From: a virus
Taxonomy: Duplodnaviria; Heunggongvirae; Uroviricota; Caudoviricetes
Virus record (IMG/VR): IMGVR_UViG_2737471828_000009
Coordinates: 1 to 31,064 of that record
Strand: one strand, 5' to 3'
DNA length: 31,064 bases
The notes under the pieces are model-generated. The model did no database searches, was not told where the DNA came from, and saw only the letters and a program-made list of their open reading frames with translations. The position numbers were made by a program, and so were the translations under genes. Of this stretch, positions 8,855 through 29,387 are shown piece by piece (the first letter of the stretch is position 1; each line of letters opens with the position of its first letter).

Positions 8855-9343
8855 ATGAGTCTATTAAATGACGTTCAGAAATTCATTGAAGCCCATCCGG
8901 GGTGTACTTCCGGAGACATTGCAGATGCTTTTGCTGGTTACTCACGGCAGCGCGTTCTGCAGTCAGCAAGCAAGTTACGTCAGAGTGGGCGTGTGGCTCA
9001 CCGTTGTGAAGGGGATACACGCAGACATTTCCCGCGCCTGACTGAGAGAGCGCAGGAGCCGGAACCACAACCAGTTCGTGAAACCAGACCTGTGCGCAAT
9101 TTCTATGTCGGCACTAACGATCCCCAGGTGATTTTGTGCCTGACCCGCCAGGCGGAAGAACTGGAGTCCAGGGGCTTATTTCGTCGTGCTGCAACCGTGT
9201 GGATGGCGGCATTCCGTGAAAGCCACTCCCAGCCAGAACGAAACAATTTTCTGGCGCGTCGTGAGCGGTGCTTACGGAAAAGCAGCAAGCGCGCTGCATC
9301 GGGTGAAGAGTGGTATCTGTCAGGGAATTACGTGGGGGCTTAA
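8855..9343 (+). CDS. Hypothetical protein with winged-helix-like N-terminus
   Basis: ATG at 8855 preceded by GGGGG; 162 aa; sits where a helicase loader (P or DnaC-like) would be expected but does not resemble either. Confidence 0.5.
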   Translation: MSLLNDVQKFIEAHPGCTSGDIADAFAGYSRQRVLQSASKLRQSGRVAHRCEGDTRRHFPRLTERAQEPEPQPVRETRPVRNFYVGTNDPQVILCLTRQAEELESRGLFRRAATVWMAAFRESHSQPERNNFLARRERCLRKSSKRAASGEEWYLSGNYVGA

Positions 9344-9996
9344 TGAGTAATAAATATTGCCAGGCGCTGGTGGAACTGCGGAACAAACCAGCCCATGAAC
9401 TGAAGGACGTGGGCGATCAGTGGCGCACGCCGGACAACATTTTCTGGGGAATTAACACCCTGTTTGGCCCGTTTGTTCTGGATCTGTTCACTGACGGTGA
9501 TAACGCCAAATGTGCTGCGTATTACACGGCGGAAGACAACGCGCTGGCGCATGACTGGTCAGAACGTCTTGCGGAGCTTAAAGGTGCTGCCTTTGGTAAT
9601 CCCCCATACAGCCGCGCCAGTCAGCATGAGGGGCAATACATCACCGGCATGCGTTACATCATGAAGCATGCCAGTGCCATGCGTGATAAGGGCGGGCGCT
9701 ATGTTTTCCTGATCAAAGCTGCCACCAGCGAAGTTTGGTGGCCGGAAGATGCAGACCATATTGCTTTTATTCGCGGGCGTATTGGTTTTGAACTGCCTGC
9801 CTGGTTTATCCCGAAGGATGAGAAGCAGGTGCCGACAGGAGCGTTCTTCGCTGGTGCTATTGCTGTTTTCGACAAGACCTGGAAGGGACCGGCAATCAGC
9901 TACATCGGGCGCGATGAACTTGAGGCATGTGGTGAGGCGTTTCTGGCGCAGGTTCGCCAGCAGGCAGAAAAACTTGTCAGGGAGATGGCGGCATGA
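9343..9996 (+). CDS. dam: Phage Dam-family DNA N6-adenine methyltransferase
   Basis: NPPY catalytic motif (FGNPPYS) and conserved WRTPDNIFW... N-terminus; start ATG overlaps the upstream stop (TAATG), preceded by GGGGG. Confidence 0.8.
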   Translation: MSNKYCQALVELRNKPAHELKDVGDQWRTPDNIFWGINTLFGPFVLDLFTDGDNAKCAAYYTAEDNALAHDWSERLAELKGAAFGNPPYSRASQHEGQYITGMRYIMKHASAMRDKGGRYVFLIKAATSEVWWPEDADHIAFIRGRIGFELPAWFIPKDEKQVPTGAFFAGAIAVFDKTWKGPAISYIGRDELEACGEAFLAQVRQQAEKLVREMAA

Positions 9997-10319
9997 CGAC
10001 GTTAACCCAATGCCAGCAGCAGGTGCTGGATATGCTGATTTCTTACCAGCAAGAGCGTGGCTTTCCGCCAACCAATCAGGAGGTGGCAACCATGCTGGGA
10101 TACCGTTCAGTGAATGCAGCGGTGGAGCATCTTCGCGCACTGGAGAAAAAAGGCGTCATCACGATAAAGCGTGGCGTGGCCCGGGGGATAACGCTTCATA
10201 CCGCGGTGAAGGACGACGACAGCGAGGCGGTCGGGATTATCCGCGCACTGCTTGCCGGTGAGGAAAACGCCAGGCTGCGTGCAGCCCACTGGTTACATGA
10301 GAGGGAACTGAAAGTATGA
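9993..10319 (+). CDS. LexA N-terminal DNA-binding-domain homolog lacking the S24 peptidase domain
   Basis: Residues 1-70 align with the E. coli LexA N-terminal domain as recalled (ours QQQVLDML...GFPPTNQEVATMLGYRSVNAAVEHLRALEKKGVITIKRGVARGI versus LexA QQEVFDLI...[44 protein letters not shown]); only 108 aa, with no Ala-Gly cleavage site or Ser/Lys catalytic domain; overlaps Dam and RusA by 4 nt each. Confidence 0.7.
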   Translation: MTTLTQCQQQVLDMLISYQQERGFPPTNQEVATMLGYRSVNAAVEHLRALEKKGVITIKRGVARGITLHTAVKDDDSEAVGIIRALLAGEENARLRAAHWLHERELKV

Positions 10320-10711
10320 AGCTGATTCTGCCTTTTCCGCCCAGCGTGAACACGTACTGGCGACACCCCAACAAAGGGGCGTTTGCAGGTAAGAGCCTGA
10401 TAAGCGCGGCGGGGCGAAAATTCCAGAGCGCGGCGTGTGCAGCAATAGTTGAGCAGTTACGTCGTCTGCCAAAACCAACGTCGGCACCTGCTTCAGTGGA
10501 GATCGTGTTGTTTCCTCCAGATAACCGGATCCGCGATCTGGACAACTATAACAAGGCGCTGTTTGACGCCCTGACCCACGCTGGTGTGTGGGAAGACGAC
10601 AGTCAGGTGAAAAGAATGCTGGTGGAGTGGGGACCGGTTATCCCGGAGGGGAAGGTCGAGATCACTATCAGTAAGTACGAAAAAGCGAGTTGCAAATTAG
10701 CAACTCGGTAA
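10316..10711 (+). CDS. rusA: RusA-family Holliday junction resolvase
   Basis: 131 aa with characteristic RusA motifs (LPFPPSVNTYWRH ... DLDNYNKALFDALTHAGVWEDDSQV). Confidence 0.85.
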   Translation: MKLILPFPPSVNTYWRHPNKGAFAGKSLISAAGRKFQSAACAAIVEQLRRLPKPTSAPASVEIVLFPPDNRIRDLDNYNKALFDALTHAGVWEDDSQVKRMLVEWGPVIPEGKVEITISKYEKASCKLATR

Positions 10712-10756
10712 CGGAATTGAGCAACACCCTAAATTTGGGTATTACCTCGTTAAAGA

Positions 10757-10776
10757 TACTGTATTTATGAACAGTG
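10757..10776. promoter_or_regulatory. LexA (SOS) box upstream of the KilA-N gene
   Basis: TACTGTATTTATGAACAGTG matches the CTGT-N8-ACAG core of the E. coli LexA box consensus TACTGTATATATATACAGTA; about 100 bp upstream of the ATG at 10874. Confidence 0.6.
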
Positions 10777-10873
10777 TATCCTTGATAACTATTAAAAATC
10801 GCAGTAAGTTCATCCTGCATCAACGAAAAGGGAGTGCAGTCCCGCTCGTGGATAAAAATTTGTGGAGAAACCA

Positions 10874-11689
10874 ATGAATCAGTTGCTTGTAATTGATGGC
10901 GTTTCTGTGCGCCAGTACTTCGAATCTAACTACTGTCTTAACGACCTTCAGAAAGCTGCTCTTCTTGCCGCTGGTGAGAATCGCTCCTCCCGTTCGCTGG
11001 AAGTTCACGAGTTTATGCGTCGTCCTGAAACGAAGGCTCTTGTGGAATTATTGGAAGAAGAAACTACGGGAGATTCCCGTAGTATTCCTGTCATCACCAT
11101 TCAGGGGCGCAATGGTGGGACGTATGTCTGTAAAGAGCTGGTCTATGCATATGCAATGTGGATCAGCCCGGCATTCAGCTTAAAAGTGATACGTACTTTT
11201 GATGCGCTTCATAATTCATCACCAGAAGAAACCACATCCGACAAAATTAAATCCGGGGTCATTCTGCTTGAATCAGCAGCAAAGACTCTAAATCTGTCAA
11301 ACTCCTCGAAACTTGGTGCATACCAGAAATTATCAAAGGTAGCTGGTCTTCCTGAACTTATGCCGATCTATGCCATTGATGCACCTGCTGATGCGCCAGA
11401 TGGTTCAAGCCGCCCTACGCTGTCGCTGAGTGTACTGCTGAAGCAGTATGGTATCCGCCTGACAGCTAATCAGGCATATCACCAGATGGTGAAGCTGGGG
11501 ATCGTCGAGCAGCGCGAACGATACAGCCGTACCGCGATTAACAACATCAAAAAATTCTGGTCGCTGACAGCGAAAGGCTGCATGTTCGGCAAGAACATCA
11601 CCAGTCCCGCAAATCCGCGCGAGACGCAGCCGCATTTCTTCGAATCCCGATTCCCTGAGCTGTTAAAGCTGCTCGATACCGTTCATTGA
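10874..11689 (+). CDS. KilA-N domain protein (putative anti-repressor)
   Basis: N-terminal KilA-N signature (GTYVCKELVYAYAMWISPAFSLKVIRTFDAL); ATG 10874 preceded by GGAGA; sits under a LexA box. Confidence 0.75.
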   Translation: MNQLLVIDGVSVRQYFESNYCLNDLQKAALLAAGENRSSRSLEVHEFMRRPETKALVELLEEETTGDSRSIPVITIQGRNGGTYVCKELVYAYAMWISPAFSLKVIRTFDALHNSSPEETTSDKIKSGVILLESAAKTLNLSNSSKLGAYQKLSKVAGLPELMPIYAIDAPADAPDGSSRPTLSLSVLLKQYGIRLTANQAYHQMVKLGIVEQRERYSRTAINNIKKFWSLTAKGCMFGKNITSPANPRETQPHFFESRFPELLKLLDTVH

Positions 11690-11690
11690 G

Positions 11691-12686
11691 GTGACCGTGA
11701 GAGCACTACTGACCCCTGAAATTGCCCCGCGTATGGGGATCGTATTGTTCAGACCCGGTTCAGAGCTGATGCCCCTGTTTATGCAGGGGCGTGTCCTGCT
11801 GGAGCCTGAGCCGGAACGTTATTCATCTTTCGCCAGTGGTGCCGTACCGGCGGCATCACAACCGCTGGCGGATGATCCTGCCGTTCGGGCCGTGTTCCGC
11901 AATGAGGCAGTGATCCGTCGTGCTGGTGGCGTGGAATGTCTTGAAAGCTGGTTACTTCGTGAAAAAGGCTGCCAGTGGCCTCATTCCGACTGGCACAGCG
12001 AGAACATGACAACAATGCGACACGCGCCGGGCGCAATCCGTCTGTGCTGGCACTGCGATAACCAGCTGCGCGATCAGTTCACGGAACGGCTGGAATCAAT
12101 GGCAACGGATAACTGTGCCCGCTGGGTGTTGTCTGTTGTGCGTCGGGATCTCGGTTTTGATGATAGTCACGTTGTGACAATGCCGGAACTGTGCTGGTGG
12201 CTGATTCGTAATGACCTGGCGGATGTCTTACCGGAAAGTGCAGCCCGTAAGGCACTGAGATTACCAAAGCCTGTTGTGCCGTCTGTCACCCGGGAAAGTG
12301 ACCTTGTGCCTTCGGCTCCTGCCACCAGCATCATCCAGGATAAGGCAAAAAAGGTGCTGGCGCTGAAAGTGGATCCGGAGTCGCCGGAGTCTTTTATGTT
12401 ACGCCCAAAACGTCGCCGCTGGGTTAATGAAAAGTACACGCGCTGGGTTAAGACACAGCCGTGTGCATGTTGTGGAAAGCCTGCTGATGATCCCCACCAC
12501 CTGATAGGCCACGGTCAGGGGGGAATGAGTACAAAAGCGCATGACCTCTTTGTGTTGCCTTTGTGCAGAAAGCATCACGACGAGCTGCATGCGGATACCG
12601 TGGCATTTGAAGAGAAGTATGGCTCCCAGCTGGAGCTGATATTTCGTTTTATCGATCGCGCGCTGGCAATTGGCGTGCTGGCCTGA
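11691..12686 (+). CDS. DUF968 (YdfU-like) protein with C-terminal HNH-like Cys/His motif
   Basis: C-terminal CACCGKPADDPHHLIGHGQGG ... CRKHHDELH motif typical of DUF968 proteins found next to Q in Qin/Rac-type prophages; start codon uncertain (GTG 11691 or 11697). Confidence 0.65.
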   Translation: MTVRALLTPEIAPRMGIVLFRPGSELMPLFMQGRVLLEPEPERYSSFASGAVPAASQPLADDPAVRAVFRNEAVIRRAGGVECLESWLLREKGCQWPHSDWHSENMTTMRHAPGAIRLCWHCDNQLRDQFTERLESMATDNCARWVLSVVRRDLGFDDSHVVTMPELCWWLIRNDLADVLPESAARKALRLPKPVVPSVTRESDLVPSAPATSIIQDKAKKVLALKVDPESPESFMLRPKRRRWVNEKYTRWVKTQPCACCGKPADDPHHLIGHGQGGMSTKAHDLFVLPLCRKHHDELHADTVAFEEKYGSQLELIFRFIDRALAIGVLA

Positions 12687-12704
12687 TTTTTTCGGAGAAA
12701 GGTG

Positions 12705-13067
12705 ATGCGTGATATTCAGATGGTTCTGGATCGTTGGGGAGCATGGGCGGCGAGTGATAGTTCAGGAGTAGATTATTCTCCTATAGCTGCTGGGTTTAAA
12801 GGGCTTCTTCCCTATACAAGCAAAACACGTCAGGCTTGTTCAGATAGTGATGCATTAATTATTGAAGGTTGTCTTGCACGTCTAAAGCAAAAAAGACCTG
12901 ATGAGCATTCGCTTCTTGTGGCCCATTACCTATACGGTATCTCTAAAAGAAAGCTCGCTAAAGCTCGCAAAAAGGATGAGAAAATAATACGCATTGAGAT
13001 ACAGATGGCTGAGGGATTTATAGAAGGTTGTCTAGCTATTCTAAATGTTAGCTTAGATATGGATTAA
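12705..13067 (+). CDS. Q: Late-gene antiterminator Q (QuuD/QuuQ-like small Q family)
   Basis: About 120-aa product in the position of Q, upstream of the lysis genes; family assignment from memory of the K-12 cryptic-prophage Q proteins; ATG 12705 preceded by GGAGA. Confidence 0.65.
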   Translation: MRDIQMVLDRWGAWAASDSSGVDYSPIAAGFKGLLPYTSKTRQACSDSDALIIEGCLARLKQKRPDEHSLLVAHYLYGISKRKLAKARKKDEKIIRIEIQMAEGFIEGCLAILNVSLDMD

Positions 13068-13082
13068 TATCTTGGTTTGGAT

Positions 13083-13106
13083 AAGCAGGTGTGCTTGCAC
13101 CTGCTT
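13083..13106. terminator. Perfect hairpin between convergent Q and membrane-protein genes
   Basis: AAGCAGGTG-tgcttg-CACCTGCTT (9-bp perfect stem) followed on the plus strand by AATATTATAT; likely limits read-through from Q into the antisense of the cargo cassette. Confidence 0.4.
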
Positions 13107-13110
13107 AATA

Positions 13111-13557
13111 TTATATGTGGGGTAATATCCAGTTTATTTTCCTCCAGGTACTTGCAAATGAAACTATTGATACGATCAGGGTCGAGAAACCATATAAGGT
13201 TAGGGCGAAATCAAGTCTTACAGAGGTAATGGTGATTTTTTCATTTATAAACATTGCTATCAGCGGGAAAATACATGCTAATATTAAGGTAACTCCCGTA
13301 GATAACAGGTTATGAATAATTTTAGGTAAAATCTTGTTTTGTTTTAAAGCAAAAATAATTCCATCAGTACTTGAACTTGCAGAACTGAAGATGGAAATAG
13401 CGGCCAATACAAAACCAAACAAAATGCCTGCCACCGTAGATAACACTCCGGCTGTACTTAAGATATCAGAGTGAGCCATAGGCGCTAGGTATTTCCCAAG
13501 CACCCAAGCTAACAGCCCACTGATAACTATGTTAATTAAAACTTTAATAAGCATAAT
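13111..13557 (-). CDS. Small integral membrane protein with four predicted TM helices (RexB-like architecture)
   Basis: About 148-150 aa; four hydrophobic segments (approximately residues 3-23, 34-59, 81-105, 117-137); AT-rich; 14-nt gap after the upstream gene; the start may be the third Met (AAGG at 6 nt spacing). Confidence 0.6.
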   Translation of the reverse strand: MMLIKVLINIVISGLLAWVLGKYLAPMAHSDILSTAGVLSTVAGILFGFVLAAISIFSSASSSTDGIIFALKQNKILPKIIHNLLSTGVTLILACIFPLIAMFINEKITITSVRLDFALTLYGFSTLIVSIVSFASTWRKINWILPHI

Positions 13558-13577
13558 CATCATCCTTAAAAATAAGA

Positions 13578-14510
13578 TCAGATTTCATATTGCTTTAAAT
13601 ACTGACCATGTTCAATTTTAGCACTGATCAAGGCAGTACGCACATCTGTTTCTTTTGCGTAGCCATCTTTTGTGTTAATGTTTTTTTCACTGATCAGAAC
13701 TTGATTGAGAAGACTCCTTGAATGAGTATTTTTAGGTTCAGTGACATTAGCTTTACGTAATAAGTGAGGAACTTTTTCTATTAATTCCTTTATTCCACTT
13801 TTTACTTCATCACTGAGATAACCACGGATTAATTTACGTTGCGATGCTCTACCTCTAAGTGATAGTTTTAAATGCGAACCGCCCATCCCAGCCATCATTT
13901 CAATCATACTTTTGGAAAATGAATTCGAAAGGTCATAATCCGTTGCGCTAAAATTACGTGGAGCGGCGAGTGTAATTTCACAGCTACGTAAAGTGCTTCC
14001 TGTTTCAAGTAGTTCTTTTACACTTTCTTTTTTCCAAATTGCCTCAAACGCTACAGGTTTGTTTTCTTCAGAAAAATTGAATAAAAGAAATGCTAAATCG
14101 GAAACTTTAGGTCCTAAATGATTTTGAGATAAAACAAGAATGTCTTTCTTATAGTAGTAAATAAAATAAGTGCGTTCGACTATATATTTTTTATCATCTA
14201 ACGGAATATTGTGCTCATCCCAATTTTCATCACCAATATAAGGTAAGTGGAAACCATCACGAGAGCATGATAGATAACCAAAATAGAACTCCGCCTGTGC
14301 GTCTTTTTCTAAGAATACAACCTTTAATTTTTTCTTATCAAACTCAGCGGTATAAGAATTTTGCGAAGGTGTAACAATGGTTGTATACATGTTGTCAAAT
14401 GCAAGTTGTGCATTTGATGTAGTTGACTTCGTTCCTGAGGAGCTTTGGAAGAAACCGATACGCATTTTTTTTTGTTTAGTTAGTGGCGCGGAAGTGGCTG
14501 TAGTAGTCAT
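13578..14510 (-). CDS. Soluble 310-aa protein, first gene of the counter-oriented two-gene cassette (candidate abortive-infection sensor, RexA-like architecture)
   Basis: ATG 14510 preceded by AAAGGG at about 8 nt; AT-rich; forms a tight operon with the downstream membrane protein; no catalytic motif recognised. Confidence 0.6.
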   Translation of the reverse strand: MTTTATSAPLTKQKKMRIGFFQSSSGTKSTTSNAQLAFDNMYTTIVTPSQNSYTAEFDKKKLKVVFLEKDAQAEFYFGYLSCSRDGFHLPYIGDENWDEHNIPLDDKKYIVERTYFIYYYKKDILVLSQNHLGPKVSDLAFLLFNFSEENKPVAFEAIWKKESVKELLETGSTLRSCEITLAAPRNFSATDYDLSNSFSKSMIEMMAGMGGSHLKLSLRGRASQRKLIRGYLSDEVKSGIKELIEKVPHLLRKANVTEPKNTHSRSLLNQVLISEKNINTKDGYAKETDVRTALISAKIEHGQYLKQYEI

Positions 14511-14810
14511 TAAAATTACCCTTTATTATCCTTTTGAATCAATGGGTTGTGATTTGTTAATGATCCTGGGTTCGTTGCATATGCATAATCTATCAAAAAA
14601 AACTTACGCGGTCCGCATTTTCTCGTTTACTGTGTTAAGAGTGGTTACTTCGCCACACAGCTTAAACCCGCCGTCGAGCGGTTTTTTTGTACCTGTAAAC
14701 CTGGTGCAGTACAGTAAACACGCTGGTGGTCGTGAATACTGACTTTTTATCTTGCTGGCTTTTTAGACAAGAGTTATTGGTATGTCATGTTAACCAGAAG
14801 GGAAAAAGAC

Positions 14811-15014: not shown

Positions 15015-15164
15015 TGGCGGTTTCCTGCTGTGAAAATGGGCGGCTGGTGGGTGTTGGTAGCACCTGCCAGCCATTCGCTCATGCTTACTGGTCACAAGCG
15101 AACCACGGCCCACTGCTTTAGCGCAAAAGCAGAGTGAGCCTACCAGAGTTACGCTTACTGATCC

Positions 15165-16226
15165 ATGAAAAATACTGTAAAAATAAACAGTGTTGATTTA
15201 ATCAACGCTGATTGCCTGCATTTTATTCAGTCCCTGCCTGATGATTCCATTGACCTGATTGTTACCGATCCGCCGTACTTCAAGGTGAAACCCAACGGCT
15301 GGGACAATCAGTGGAAAGGGGACGAAGATTACCTTAAGTGGCTGGACCACTGTCTGGCCCAGTTCTGGCGGGTGTTAAAGCCTGCCGGAAGCCTTTACCT
15401 GTTCTGTGGGCATCGCCTGGCATCTGATATTGAGATCATGATGCGTGAACGTTTCAACGTGCTTAACCATATCATCTGGGCGAAGCCGTCCGGACGTTGG
15501 AATGGGTGTAATAAAGAAAGTCTGCGCGCATATTTTCCTGCCACAGAGCGCGTTCTGTTTGCTGAACATTACCAGGGGCCATATCGCGGCAAAAGTGACG
15601 GCTATGCGGCAAAAGAAAGGGAACTCAAACAGCATATAATGGCACCGCTGATATCGTATTTCAGGGATGCTCGTGCCGAACTGGGTATAACGGCAAAACA
15701 AATTGCCGAAGTCACAGGTAAGAAAAATATGGTTTCCCACTGGTTTGGTGCCAGTCAGTGGCAGTTGCCGAATGAGGCTGACTATCGGAAGTTACAGGCA
15801 CTTTTTTCCCGTATAGCGGCAGAGAAGTTTCAGGAACAACAGCTGGAACAACCACACCACCAACTGGTGGCATCTTATGATTCACTGAATCGCAAATATT
15901 CTGAATTGCTGGATGAGTTTAAATCTCTCCGTCGCTATTTCTCCGTATCAGTCTCCGTGCCTTATACCGATGTCTGGATGCATAAACCCGTTCAGTTCTA
16001 CCCGGGCAAACATCCGTGTGAGAAACCGGCGGATATGCTCAGGCAAATAATCAATGCCAGTAGTCGACCTGGCGATCTGGTTGCTGATTTCTTTATGGGA
16101 TCCGGTTCCACAATAAAAGCAGCAATGGCGCTGGGGCGTCGGGCATTAGGTGTTGAGCTTGAGACAGAACGGTTCAATAAGACCATTCAGGAAATCAGTA
16201 TGTTATCAGCAAATACAATTTTGTGA
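15165..16226 (+). CDS. Orphan DNA methyltransferase (beta-class N6-adenine/N4-cytosine type)
   Basis: N-terminal catalytic motif IV DPPY (LIVTDPPYF) and C-terminal AdoMet motif I (FFMGSGST); no restriction endonuclease gene nearby. Confidence 0.8.
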   Translation: MKNTVKINSVDLINADCLHFIQSLPDDSIDLIVTDPPYFKVKPNGWDNQWKGDEDYLKWLDHCLAQFWRVLKPAGSLYLFCGHRLASDIEIMMRERFNVLNHIIWAKPSGRWNGCNKESLRAYFPATERVLFAEHYQGPYRGKSDGYAAKERELKQHIMAPLISYFRDARAELGITAKQIAEVTGKKNMVSHWFGASQWQLPNEADYRKLQALFSRIAAEKFQEQQLEQPHHQLVASYDSLNRKYSELLDEFKSLRRYFSVSVSVPYTDVWMHKPVQFYPGKHPCEKPADMLRQIINASSRPGDLVADFFMGSGSTIKAAMALGRRALGVELETERFNKTIQEISMLSANTIL

Positions 16227-28958: not shown

Positions 28959-29387
28959 ATGTTTCTGAAAACAGAACAATTTGAATATAACGGCGTGTCC
29001 GTCACCCTTTCCGAACTGTCTGCGCTGCAGCGTATTGAGCATCTTGCCCTCCTGAAACGGCGGGCAGAAGAGGCTGAAGCCAGCGGCAACCTGCAGGTGA
29101 GCGTGGAAGACCTTGTCAGAACCGGGGCGTTTCTGGTGGCGATGTCCCTGTGGCATAACCATCCACAGAAAACGCAGTCACCGTCAATGAATGAGGCCGT
29201 GATGAAGATAGAGCAGGAAGTGCTCACCACCTGGCCTGCTGATGCCATTGCCCGGGCGGAAGAAGTGGTGTTGTGCCTGTCCGGGATGATCGAAGCTGTT
29301 CGTCCGGATACTGATATCACCGAAGTGGCGAAAAATAACGTGCTGACTGATGATTTTTCTGCGGGAAAGTCTTCGACGGCGAGCTGA
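28959..29387 (+). CDS. G: Tail assembly chaperone G
   Basis: 142 aa, highly similar to lambda gpG as recalled (MFLKTEQFEYNGVSVTLSELSALQRIEHLAL...); ends ...SAGKSSTAS with the conserved slippery site near its 3' end. Confidence 0.9.
   Translation: MFLKTEQFEYNGVSVTLSELSALQRIEHLALLKRRAEEAEASGNLQVSVEDLVRTGAFLVAMSLWHNHPQKTQSPSMNEAVMKIEQEVLTTWPADAIARAEEVVLCLSGMIEAVRPDTDITEVAKNNVLTDDFSAGKSSTAS

What the first reader, a model, noticed from the sequence alone, without database searches (positions are those of the whole stretch)
10757..11689. Canonical SOS box positioned to control a KilA-N (anti-repressor-type) gene
TACTGTATTTATGAACAGTG is a near-consensus LexA operator lying about 100 bp upstream of the KilA-N gene, in the intergenic region after RusA. 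This suggests a second, LexA-gated induction route (SOS leads to anti-repressor expression, which inactivates CI) in addition to direct RecA-stimulated cleavage of the S24-type CI, as in phage 186 Tum and Gifsy-type prophages. Together with the adjacent LexA-like truncated protein this forms a potentially self-contained SOS-sensing circuit.
Basis: partly seen in the sequence, partly recalled or inferred. Interest (0 to 1): 0.6.

Follow-up and report, generated by a model that had tools for sequence, protein, structure and literature searches.

The report
SOS-gated internal promoter in a prophage
A strong binding site for the bacterial DNA-damage repressor LexA sits beside a conserved promoter inside a lambda-like prophage, so DNA damage probably switches on a DNA-binding protein, a nuclease-like partner and perhaps the late-gene activator Q; nothing shows that the protein is an anti-repressor.

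Summary
TACTGTATTTATGAACAGTG (10757-10776) is a near-consensus LexA box in the 162-bp rusA/KilA-N spacer, 97 bp before the ATG at 10874. It is one of only two such sites in the window, against about 0.003 expected by chance.

It lies 5 bp upstream of the best promoter-like site in the spacer: TTGATA (10782-87), 17 bp, TAAGTT (10805-10). A covarying leader hairpin follows (10819-10853, loop GUGCAG).

The box/-35/-10/hairpin layout recurs at a fixed register upstream of orthologous KilA-N genes in many Enterobacterales. In Pantoea, Rosenbergiella and Erwinia, LexA-like boxes instead overlap the -35 or -10. LexA-like sites are about 40-fold enriched in this position.

LexA control of this gene family is therefore well supported by comparison, though untested. 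In the window's lineage the box sits upstream of the -35, which is unusual for LexA.

The anti-repressor reading is not supported:
- The protein has only a KilA-N (APSES-like) domain plus a family-less C-terminal domain.
- It is almost always paired with DUF968 (Orf-like plus HNH) and precedes Q.
- The linked CI repressors are all self-cleaving S24 types.

The neighbouring LexA-like protein has no protease domain and cannot sense damage.

The parts
10757..10776 (.). LexA operator (SOS box) TACTGTATTTATGAACAGTG
   Evidence: It matches the consensus at 16 of 20 positions, with both CTGT/ACAG cores intact. My heterology index is 4.8. Chance expectation is about 0.003 per 31 kb. A positionally homologous palindrome occurs in other genera.
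10782..10787 (+). Predicted -35 hexamer TTGATA of the internal promoter (P_kilAN)
   Evidence: It is the top-scoring sigma-70 candidate on either strand of 10690-10880 (score 9.5, next best 6.7). TTGAAA, TTGATA or TTGAAG occurs at the same register in Atlantibacter, Leclercia, Enterobacter, Superficieibacter and Raoultella. The stricter tool scan did not list it.
10805..10810 (+). Predicted -10 hexamer TAAGTT (17-bp spacer); predicted start near 10817
   Evidence: A TAnnnT hexamer lies exactly 24 nt before the TGCAG loop in most of the 15 lineages compared. No transcript data exist.
10819..10853 (+). Conserved leader hairpin: inner stem GGGA 10830-33 / UCCC 10840-43, loop GUGCAG 10834-39, middle stem ACGA 10823-26 / UCGU 10846-49
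   Evidence: Fold. Covariation on 20 distinct sequences: 95% of cells paired against 67% in shuffles (0 of 500), 4 of 5 pairs with compensatory changes, slid controls at or below 52%. No Rfam match.
10864..10867 (+). Shine-Dalgarno GGAG, within the conserved GTGGAGAA
   Evidence: It lies 6 nt before the ATG and is conserved in nearly all loci.
10874..11689 (+). KilA-N domain protein, 271 aa (N-terminal APSES-like domain, helical linker, family-less C-terminal domain)
   Evidence: (phrog_129).
11691..12686 (+). DUF968 / HNH (His-Me finger) protein, translationally coupled to KilA-N; likely start GTG 11697
   Evidence: phrog_96. It follows KilA-N in 44 of 47 loci. Described as an Orf-like domain plus HNH in PMC4118853 and PMC5714182.
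12702..13067 (+). Late antiterminator Q (likely ATG 12705), next gene downstream with no canonical terminator in between
10316..10711 (+). rusA, whose 3' end is a mosaic junction
   Evidence: The inverted repeat 10687-10706 is homologous to an internal piece of the SfII-type KilA-N gene. The out-of-frame remnant ELQISNSVTELSNTLNLGITSLKILYL* ends inside the box. GC falls to 0.45 over 10600-11400.
9993..10319 (+). Phage LexA homologue: DNA-binding domain only, 108 aa, no S24 domain
15173..15192 (.). Second strong LexA box TACTGTAAAAATAAACAGTG, in codons 3-10 of the late-region DNA methyltransferase gene (15165-16226)
   Evidence: It is conserved at synonymous sites in five genera and is present in the O104:H4 prophage.
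6006..6680 (-). CI repressor, self-cleaving S24 type

Best explanation
The rusA/KilA-N spacer carries an internal, LexA-operated promoter in the ninR region of a lambdoid prophage.

Proposed mechanism:
- In an undamaged lysogen, host LexA occupies the box at 10757-10776. The box abuts the upstream edge of the -35 (its centre is about -50 from the predicted start). LexA there would keep the promoter TTGATA-17-TAAGTT off, most likely by blocking the region where the RNA polymerase alpha C-terminal domains and sigma region 4 dock.
- RecA*-driven LexA cleavage frees the promoter.
- The transcript carries a conserved structured leader and a strong ribosome-binding site. It encodes the KilA-N DNA-binding protein and the translationally coupled DUF968 (Orf-like plus HNH) protein. 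With no evident terminator, it probably reads on into Q.

The output is therefore most likely a DNA-transaction module of the lytic or recombination programme, possibly with a head start on late-gene activation. An anti-repressor is less likely.

Shown: the site, its quality and its non-randomness; the conserved box/-35/-10/hairpin layout; recurrence of LexA-like boxes upstream of orthologues; the gene pairing.

Inferred: LexA binding, repression from this position, the transcription start, read-through into Q, and the biological role.
For: Site quality and chance.

The best sigma-70 candidate in the spacer lies 5 bp downstream of the box.

Anchoring 15 lineages on the leader hairpin loop places a 20-bp LexA-like palindrome, a TTGAAA/TTGATA -35 and a TAnnnT -10 at fixed registers in most of them. 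These span Escherichia, Citrobacter, Raoultella, Enterobacter, Superficieibacter, Atlantibacter, Leclercia, Kosakonia and Kluyvera.

In Rosenbergiella and Pantoea the box overlaps the -35 of GTTACA-17-TATATT or TATAGT. In Erwinia it overlaps the -10 of TTGCCA-17-TATATT. The same regulatory link thus appears in classical repressor geometries.

Enrichment: 15 sites with index <=12 in 5,687 bp (-180 to -60 from the ATG) against 21 in 325,700 bp elsewhere in the same 47 loci.

Loci where KilA-N follows rusA by about 20 bp have no box. Where both box and -35 have decayed (C. farmeri, L150) they decayed together.

Several box-bearing loci lack a detectable phage LexA homologue in the 3.5 kb held upstream, so host LexA is the common factor.

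The KilA-N stop and DUF968 start are adjacent, and no canonical terminator lies before Q.
Against: No experimental data of any kind were found.

In the window's lineage the box lies wholly upstream of the -35. This is not the usual LexA position, which overlaps the -35, the -10 or the start site.

The -10 (TAAGTT) matches the consensus at only 3 of 6 positions, and the tool's stricter scan found no promoter in the spacer.

In 8 related lineages the left half-site reads GTG rather than CTG, with indices of 9 to 14. Those versions may bind LexA weakly or bind something else.

The near-identical copies in SfIV, PhiR49_1 and 187 E. coli genomes are too recent to show purifying selection on the box itself.

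A LexA-only gate on Q would look dangerous for a lysogen, which argues for some insulation that I did not find.

My LexA and sigma-70 matrices were built from memory.
Confidence: 0.55

Rival explanations
1. The KilA-N protein is a LexA-gated anti-repressor that binds and inactivates CI, giving a second induction route like 186 Tum or Gifsy GfoA/GfhA.
For: A strong LexA box lies next to the gene's promoter. LexA-controlled anti-repressors are an established kind (cited in PMC8072944). Some database records name relatives or neighbours 'antirepressor'.
Against: There is no homology to any anti-repressor family, and the C-terminal domain matches nothing in Pfam. The fold is of DNA-binding type. 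The gene is obligately paired with an Orf-HNH protein. In SfII-type and Stx phages it is expressed only from PR, after CI is already gone. Every CI found with the module is a self-cleaving S24 repressor.
Confidence: 0.12
2. The boxes are used mainly by the phage's own LexA homologue (9993-10319), an uncleavable DNA-binding domain made from PR. It would re-close or activate these sites after host LexA is destroyed, as GIL01 gp6 acts at the P3 late promoter.
For: The homologue keeps Ser39, Asn41, Ala42/43, Lys53, Gly54 and Arg64 of LexA, and in this phage also Glu45. It sits two genes upstream in a conserved MTase/LexA-DBD/RusA/KilA-N/DUF968/Q cassette. Phages carrying it have strong boxes in different modules: SfII inside cI; SfIV at KilA-N; the window at KilA-N and the MTase; the O104:H4 prophage at all three. 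A box centre near -50 and the conserved GTG half-site would suit a regulator other than LexA. Precedent: PMC6182141.
Against: Boxes occur upstream of KilA-N in loci with no detectable homologue. Positions 44 and 45 of the recognition helix vary across the family. The LexA dimerisation domain is absent. There is no experimental support.
Confidence: 0.13
3. The box is a functionless passenger, brought in with a lower-GC mosaic fragment. KilA-N is expressed only by read-through from PR.
For: The spacer is a recombination junction with a gene remnant whose stop codon lies in the box. All copies of this exact module are nearly identical. The predicted -10 is weak.
Against: A near-consensus site is expected about 0.003 times per 31 kb. 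A positionally homologous palindrome and promoter occur across genera, and LexA-like boxes overlap core promoter elements upstream of orthologues in other lineages. The enrichment is about 40-fold.
Confidence: 0.1

Closest known systems
LexA-repressed anti-repressor promoters of temperate phages (coliphage 186 p95-tum; Salmonella Gifsy-1/3 gfoA/gfhA; N15 antC; P22-like SPC32H ant)
   Same: A host LexA operator sits at a prophage promoter outside the immunity region, so LexA cleavage switches on a phage gene independently of the phage repressor.
   Different: The product here has no similarity to Tum, Ant, GfoA or AntC. The cognate CI is self-cleaving. The promoter lies inside the delayed-early operon just upstream of Q. 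The box is upstream of the -35 rather than over the core promoter. Details of the named systems are from my own knowledge plus the citation in PMC8072944.
Tectivirus GIL01: host LexA (with gp7) at P1, and gp6, a LexA homologue lacking the C-terminal domain, activating late promoter P3 (PMC4551915, PMC6182141)
   Same: A phage uses host LexA boxes and also encodes a LexA DNA-binding-domain-only homologue. Boxes lie near late-gene control.
   Different: GIL01 is a Gram-positive linear plasmid-prophage with no CI. Here there is a lambdoid CI/Cro/Q circuit, and no evidence that the homologue binds the boxes.
KilA-N / APSES DNA-binding domain proteins (P1 KilA; BstA abortive-infection proteins of prophage BTP1)
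   Different: No ANT/KilAC C-terminal domain as in P1 KilA. The only PADLOC hit is a partial one to candidate PDC-S22 over the KilA-N core. The genomic position is ninR, not next to the repressor as for bstA.
Lambda ninR recombination genes (orf/ninB, rap/ninG, rusA) upstream of Q
   Same: The same genomic slot. DUF968 has been described as an Orf-like domain fused to an HNH nuclease (PMC4118853), and RusA is adjacent.
   Different: To my knowledge lambda's ninR genes have no promoter or LexA site of their own. The KilA-N partner and the structured leader are not lambda features.

Membership tests
E. coli-type LexA operator (SOS box) | The 16-bp core CTGT-N8-ACAG within the 20-bp palindrome TACTGT(AT)4ACAGTA | tested here: met
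   Both cores are intact and 16 of 20 positions match the consensus.
E. coli-type LexA operator (SOS box) | Heterology index within the range of validated sites | tested here: met
   Index 4.8 on my matrix; the training sites span 1.1 to 10.2. The matrix was recalled from memory and runs about 1-3 units lower than the published values I remember.
E. coli-type LexA operator (SOS box) | Overlaps or abuts a promoter so that bound LexA blocks initiation | tested here: inconclusive
   The box ends 5 bp before the predicted -35 and its centre is about -50. Orthologous loci in Pantoea, Rosenbergiella and Erwinia have the box over the -35 or -10.
E. coli-type LexA operator (SOS box) | LexA binding and SOS-dependent expression | not testable with these tools
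   This needs EMSA or footprinting and reporters in lexA(Ind-) and lexA(Def) hosts.
LexA-controlled phage anti-repressor (Tum / Ant / GfoA / AntC type) | Product homologous to a characterised anti-repressor family (ANT/KilAC PF03374, AntA/B, P22_AR, Tum/DinI-like) | tested here: not met
   Pfam gives KilA-N only. The C-terminal 156 aa give no hit at E<=10. NCBIfam gives nothing.
LexA-controlled phage anti-repressor (Tum / Ant / GfoA / AntC type) | Cognate immunity repressor cannot self-cleave (true of 186 and the Gifsy phages, not of all members) | tested here: not met
   The CI has Peptidase_S24 with an Ala-Gly site, GDSM Ser and a Lys. Other CI types linked to the module also carry S24.
LexA-controlled phage anti-repressor (Tum / Ant / GfoA / AntC type) | Product binds and inactivates the repressor | not testable with these tools
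   This needs genetics or biochemistry.
KilA-N domain proteins (PF04383) | A KilA-N domain above the Pfam gathering score, with the APSES-like fold | tested here: met
BstA abortive-infection family | Sequence match to the BstA or another defence-protein model, and a location beside the prophage repressor | tested here: inconclusive
   PADLOC gives only a partial hit to PDC-S22 over residues 63-118. I am not certain that the library holds a BstA model. The location is ninR, not next to cI.
Phage LexA homologue lacking the cleavage domain (GIL01 gp6-like), for 9993-10319 | A LexA N-terminal winged-helix domain without the S24 domain | tested here: met
   PF01726, E 2.6e-19. It aligns to E. coli LexA residues 2-86. 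TIGR00498 scores 70 bits, below its cut-off of 111. Length 108 aa.
Phage LexA homologue lacking the cleavage domain (GIL01 gp6-like), for 9993-10319 | Binds LexA-type boxes at a phage promoter and changes its activity | not testable with these tools
   The recognition helix is partly conserved, but positions 44 and 45 vary across the family.

The most novel reading that the evidence does not exclude
LexA is a second, CI-independent lock on late development in this group of lambdoid prophages. One operator gates an internal promoter that reads through KilA-N and DUF968 into Q. Another sits at the head of the late operon, in the methyltransferase start. Relatives have a third inside cI. The phage's own uncleavable LexA DNA-binding domain then re-occupies or exploits these sites once host LexA is gone. 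DNA damage would thus license Q and late genes directly, and in Stx-type relatives genes placed downstream of Q as well.
Probability: 0.15. Interest if true: 0.8.

Novelty: new variant of a known kind. Interest (0 to 1): 0.5.

Why it matters
LexA-gated prophage genes are known, but almost always as anti-repressors or dinI-like genes. Here the operator guards a conserved promoter inside the delayed-early operon, immediately upstream of the late antiterminator.

The module is common. The exact version occurs in 187 of 5,426 complete E. coli genomes, in Shigella phage SfIV, and in a non-Stx prophage of the O104:H4 outbreak strain.

If LexA really controls it, three things follow:
- SOS would reach phage lytic functions by a route that bypasses CI. 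This bears on how antibiotics that trigger SOS affect prophage gene expression.
- It would give a first functional handle on the very widespread KilA-N/DUF968 gene pair.
- It would give a first functional handle on the unexplained phage LexA-domain proteins.

If LexA does not control it, the site is still a clean test case for repression from just upstream of a -35.

Tried and rejected
- The tool's promoter scan found nothing in the spacer. I therefore scored candidates with my own approximate matrices and relied on cross-genus conservation.
- Rfam found no family for the leader or anywhere in the window. There are no tRNAs.
- Literature searches for KilA-N with LexA, SOS or antirepressor, for SfIV, and for lambdoid LexA-domain proteins found nothing on this module.
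- I looked for a terminator that would insulate Q. The hairpin at 12658-12678 is not followed directly by a U-run, and the 12640-12705 stretch containing it folds no better than shuffles.
- The third CTGT-N8-ACAG (5271-5286) lies inside an ORF, has poor flanks and scores above index 11, so I rejected it as chance.
- CRP-like and CI-operator readings of the box region were considered by eye and rejected on half-site match and spacing.
- A 36-codon upstream ORF (10768-10878, with ATGA overlap on the KilA-N start) has no Shine-Dalgarno sequence, and its frame is broken in the one related locus I read (L006). I rejected it by inspection.
- The IMG/VR scan returned mostly identical copies and added little diversity.

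Full report
**1. What is there**

The window is a mosaic lambdoid prophage. Its ninR region most resembles Shigella phages SfIV and SfII and many Stx phages.

On the + strand the gene order is:
- Dam-type methylase (9310-9996).
- A 108-aa protein that is only a LexA DNA-binding domain (9993-10319).
- RusA (10316-10711).
- A 162-bp spacer.
- A 271-aa KilA-N protein (ATG 10874 to 11689).
- DUF968/HNH (11691-12686).
- Q (12702-13067).

CI (6006-6680, minus strand) is a Peptidase_S24 repressor with an Ala-Gly site, GDSM and a Lys.

The 20-mer TACTGTATTTATGAACAGTG is at 10757-10776 and ends 97 bp before the ATG.

**2. Is it more than chance?**

CTGT-N8-ACAG occurs three times against 0.35 expected, and 0 of 100 shuffles reached three.

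Only two 20-mers in the window lie within five mismatches of TACTGTATATATATACAGTA. These are 10757 and 15173, each with four mismatches, against 0.003 expected per random 31 kb.

I built a Lewis-type heterology index from 30 E. coli sites recalled from memory, so it is approximate. It gives 4.8 and 4.7 for these two sites, among my scores for recA, lexA and uvrA. None of 200 random sequences had a site at or below 5. The third core match (5271) scores above 11 and lies inside an ORF.

**3. Origin of the spacer**

Compared with SfII, where KilA-N follows rusA after 19 bp, the window has a replacement. It runs from the last codons of rusA to about codon 80 of KilA-N. GC falls to 0.45 over 10600-11400, against 0.55-0.575 on either side.

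The inverted repeat at 10687-10706 is homologous to an internal piece of the SfII-type KilA-N gene. An out-of-frame remnant, ELQISNSVTELSNTLNLGITSLKILYL*, ends with its stop codon inside the box.

The exact module is nearly identical in SfIV (where box position 20 is A), in PhiR49_1, in 187 of 5,426 complete E. coli genomes, and in about 40 IMG/VR contigs. One of those genomes is O104:H4 HUSEC2011, where the module sits in a non-Stx prophage. These copies are too similar to say anything about selection on the box.

**4. Comparative evidence**

I collected 65 loci encoding relatives of the protein from species-representative genomes. Eleven more came from look-ups of closer relatives in other genera.

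Where rusA and KilA-N are separated by about 85-165 bp, a LexA-like palindrome lies 75-165 bp before the ATG in about 16 lineages. Where the gap is at most about 21 bp (the SfII type, most Proteus loci) there is none.

In 47 gammaproteobacterial loci, sites with index <=12 number 15 in the 5,687 bp between -180 and -60. Elsewhere in the same loci they number 21 in 325,700 bp. That is roughly a 40-fold difference in density. The loci are related, so this is not a formal probability.

Anchoring the sequences on a conserved downstream hairpin loop gives a fixed layout:
- a 20-bp palindrome;
- 4-6 nt;
- TTGAAA, TTGATA or TTGAAG;
- 17 nt;
- TAnnnT;
- 24 nt to the loop.

In the window this is TTGATA 10782-87 and TAAGTT 10805-10. 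It is the best sigma-70 candidate on either strand of the spacer by my scoring (9.5 against 6.7 for the next). It is too weak in the -10 for the tool's stricter scan.

The box centre is then about -50 from the predicted start. This is upstream of the -35, where the alpha C-terminal domains bind, and not the usual LexA position.

Other lineages have the link in classical geometries:
- Rosenbergiella and Pantoea have the box over the -35 of GTTACA-17-TATATT or TATAGT (centre -30.5).
- Erwinia has it over the -10 of TTGCCA-17-TATATT (centre -7.5).

I take the recurrence of the same regulatory link in different arrangements as the strongest argument that LexA control of this gene family is real.

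Two cautions apply. In eight lineages of the window's group the left half-site reads GTG instead of CTG, with indices of 9 to 14. The window's box is the best of its group, not typical of it.

**5. The leader**

Between the predicted start and the ribosome-binding site lies a hairpin whose loop (G/U)UGCAG is invariant (window 10819-10853).

On 20 distinct sequences:
- 95% of cells pair, against 67% in shuffles (0 of 500).
- Four of five pairs show compensatory changes, in 25 cells.
- Sliding the partner gives at most 52%.
- G-U pairs fall on the + strand, which points to the sense RNA.

The hairpin is also present where there is no spacer. In SfII-type phages it lies inside the last codons of rusA. 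It therefore belongs to the KilA-N message and not to the promoter. Proteus, Morganella and Providencia have hairpins with different loops.

Rfam has nothing like it. Its role is unknown.

**6. What the operon encodes**

The C-terminal 156 residues match no Pfam family even at E<=10. NCBIfam gives nothing. PADLOC gives only a partial hit to a candidate family over the KilA-N core.

The gene is followed at once by DUF968 in 44 of 47 gammaproteobacterial loci. DUF968 has been described as an Orf/NinB-like domain fused to an HNH nuclease, and it belongs to the His-Me finger superfamily (PMC4118853, PMC5714182).

The two genes are translationally coupled. No canonical terminator separates them from Q.

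**7. The anti-repressor idea**

Nothing in the protein resembles a known anti-repressor.

In many phages the gene lacks its own promoter and can be expressed only after CI has already been inactivated.

All CI types linked to the module carry a complete S24 domain.

I therefore rate this reading at about 0.12. It is not excluded, because anti-repressors are diverse.

**8. The LexA-like protein**

It aligns to E. coli LexA residues 2-86, including the recognition helix: RSVNAAVEHL against RSPNAAEEHL. It even has LAGE where LexA has its AAGE cleavage site.

It has no protease domain and so cannot sense RecA*.

Across nine phage homologues, Ser39, Asn41, Ala43, Lys53, Gly54 and Arg64 are invariant, but positions 44 and 45 vary.

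It occurs in a conserved cassette whether or not a good box is present. Boxes also occur in loci without it.

There is a suggestive pattern. Phages that carry it have strong boxes in different modules: SfII inside cI; SfIV at KilA-N; the window at KilA-N and the methylase; the O104:H4 prophage at all three. The only characterised analogue I found is GIL01 gp6 (PMC6182141).

**9. Verdict**

LexA control is supported by comparison but unproven, and its geometry in this lineage is atypical. The anti-repressor and 'self-contained circuit' parts are not supported.

I file it as a new variant of a known kind: a LexA-gated prophage promoter, here internal to the delayed-early operon and directly upstream of Q, attached to an uncharacterised but very widespread gene pair.

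Interest is 0.5. The site class appears undescribed in the literature I could search and is directly testable, but the mechanism and the output are still inference.

Noticed in passing
window 15173-15192 (in the DNA methyltransferase gene 15165-16226): A second near-consensus LexA box, TACTGTAAAAATAAACAGTG, occupies codons 3-10 of the late-region methyltransferase. In Kluyvera, Rosenbergiella, Providencia and Lonsdalea the same codons keep ACT, GTA, AAC and AGT at synonymous sites while the sequence just downstream diverges. This suggests selection on the DNA site. A variant, TACTGTAAAAATATCCAGTT, is at the same place in the O104:H4 prophage.
   Followed up: partly
window 10819-10853; also L016, L114 and others inside the rusA 3' end: A hairpin with an invariant (G/U)UGCAG loop and a covarying stem lies 25-50 nt upstream of KilA-N start codons across Enterobacterales. 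It is present with or without the spacer and has no Rfam match.
   Followed up: yes
L161 (SfII) 29167-29186; L163 (E. coli O104:H4 HUSEC2011 prophage) 3839-3858: Near-perfect LexA boxes (TACTGTTTTTATATACAGTA and TACTGTTTTTACATACAGTA) lie inside the coding sequence of the 230-aa HTH-S24 CI repressor, in the inter-domain linker region. The window's CI is of a different type and has none.
   Followed up: partly
window 9993-10319: The LexA DNA-binding-domain-only protein keeps an Ala-Gly motif (LLAGEE) where LexA is cleaved (VAAGEP), followed by a conserved helical tail of about 20 residues. The family recurs upstream of rusA in Citrobacter, Kluyvera, Cedecea, Leclercia and Kosakonia genomes and in unassigned sequencing-run contigs.
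   Followed up: partly
window 10874-12686 and loci L005-L051: KilA-N and DUF968 form a nearly obligate adjacent gene pair (44 of 47 gammaproteobacterial loci), usually directly upstream of a late antiterminator gene (Q family or PF03589).
   Followed up: partly
window 10687-10770: The rusA 3' end is a recombination junction. An inverted repeat is shared with the middle of SfII-type KilA-N genes, and a 27-codon out-of-frame remnant has its stop codon inside the LexA box.
   Followed up: partly
window 13000-14600: A low-GC (0.34-0.36) insert on the opposite strand lies between Q and the late-region terminator. It holds a 150-aa ORF whose function I did not examine (13111-13563) and a DUF6731 protein (13578-14510, phrog_7651). 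It looks like a moron, and no defence-system model matched the DUF6731 protein.
   Followed up: no
window 15015-15164: The roughly 150-nt non-coding stretch upstream of the methyltransferase is conserved across five genera and contains a possible hairpin (CTGCTTT..AAAGCAG). There is no tRNA or Rfam match.
   Followed up: no
window 14660-14692: A clear intrinsic terminator (AAACCCGCCGTCGAGCGGTTTTTTTG) lies downstream of a CATAAT -10-like element at about 14582. It looks like the PR'/tR' late leader of lambdoid phages, displaced from Q by the insert (read by eye).
   Followed up: no
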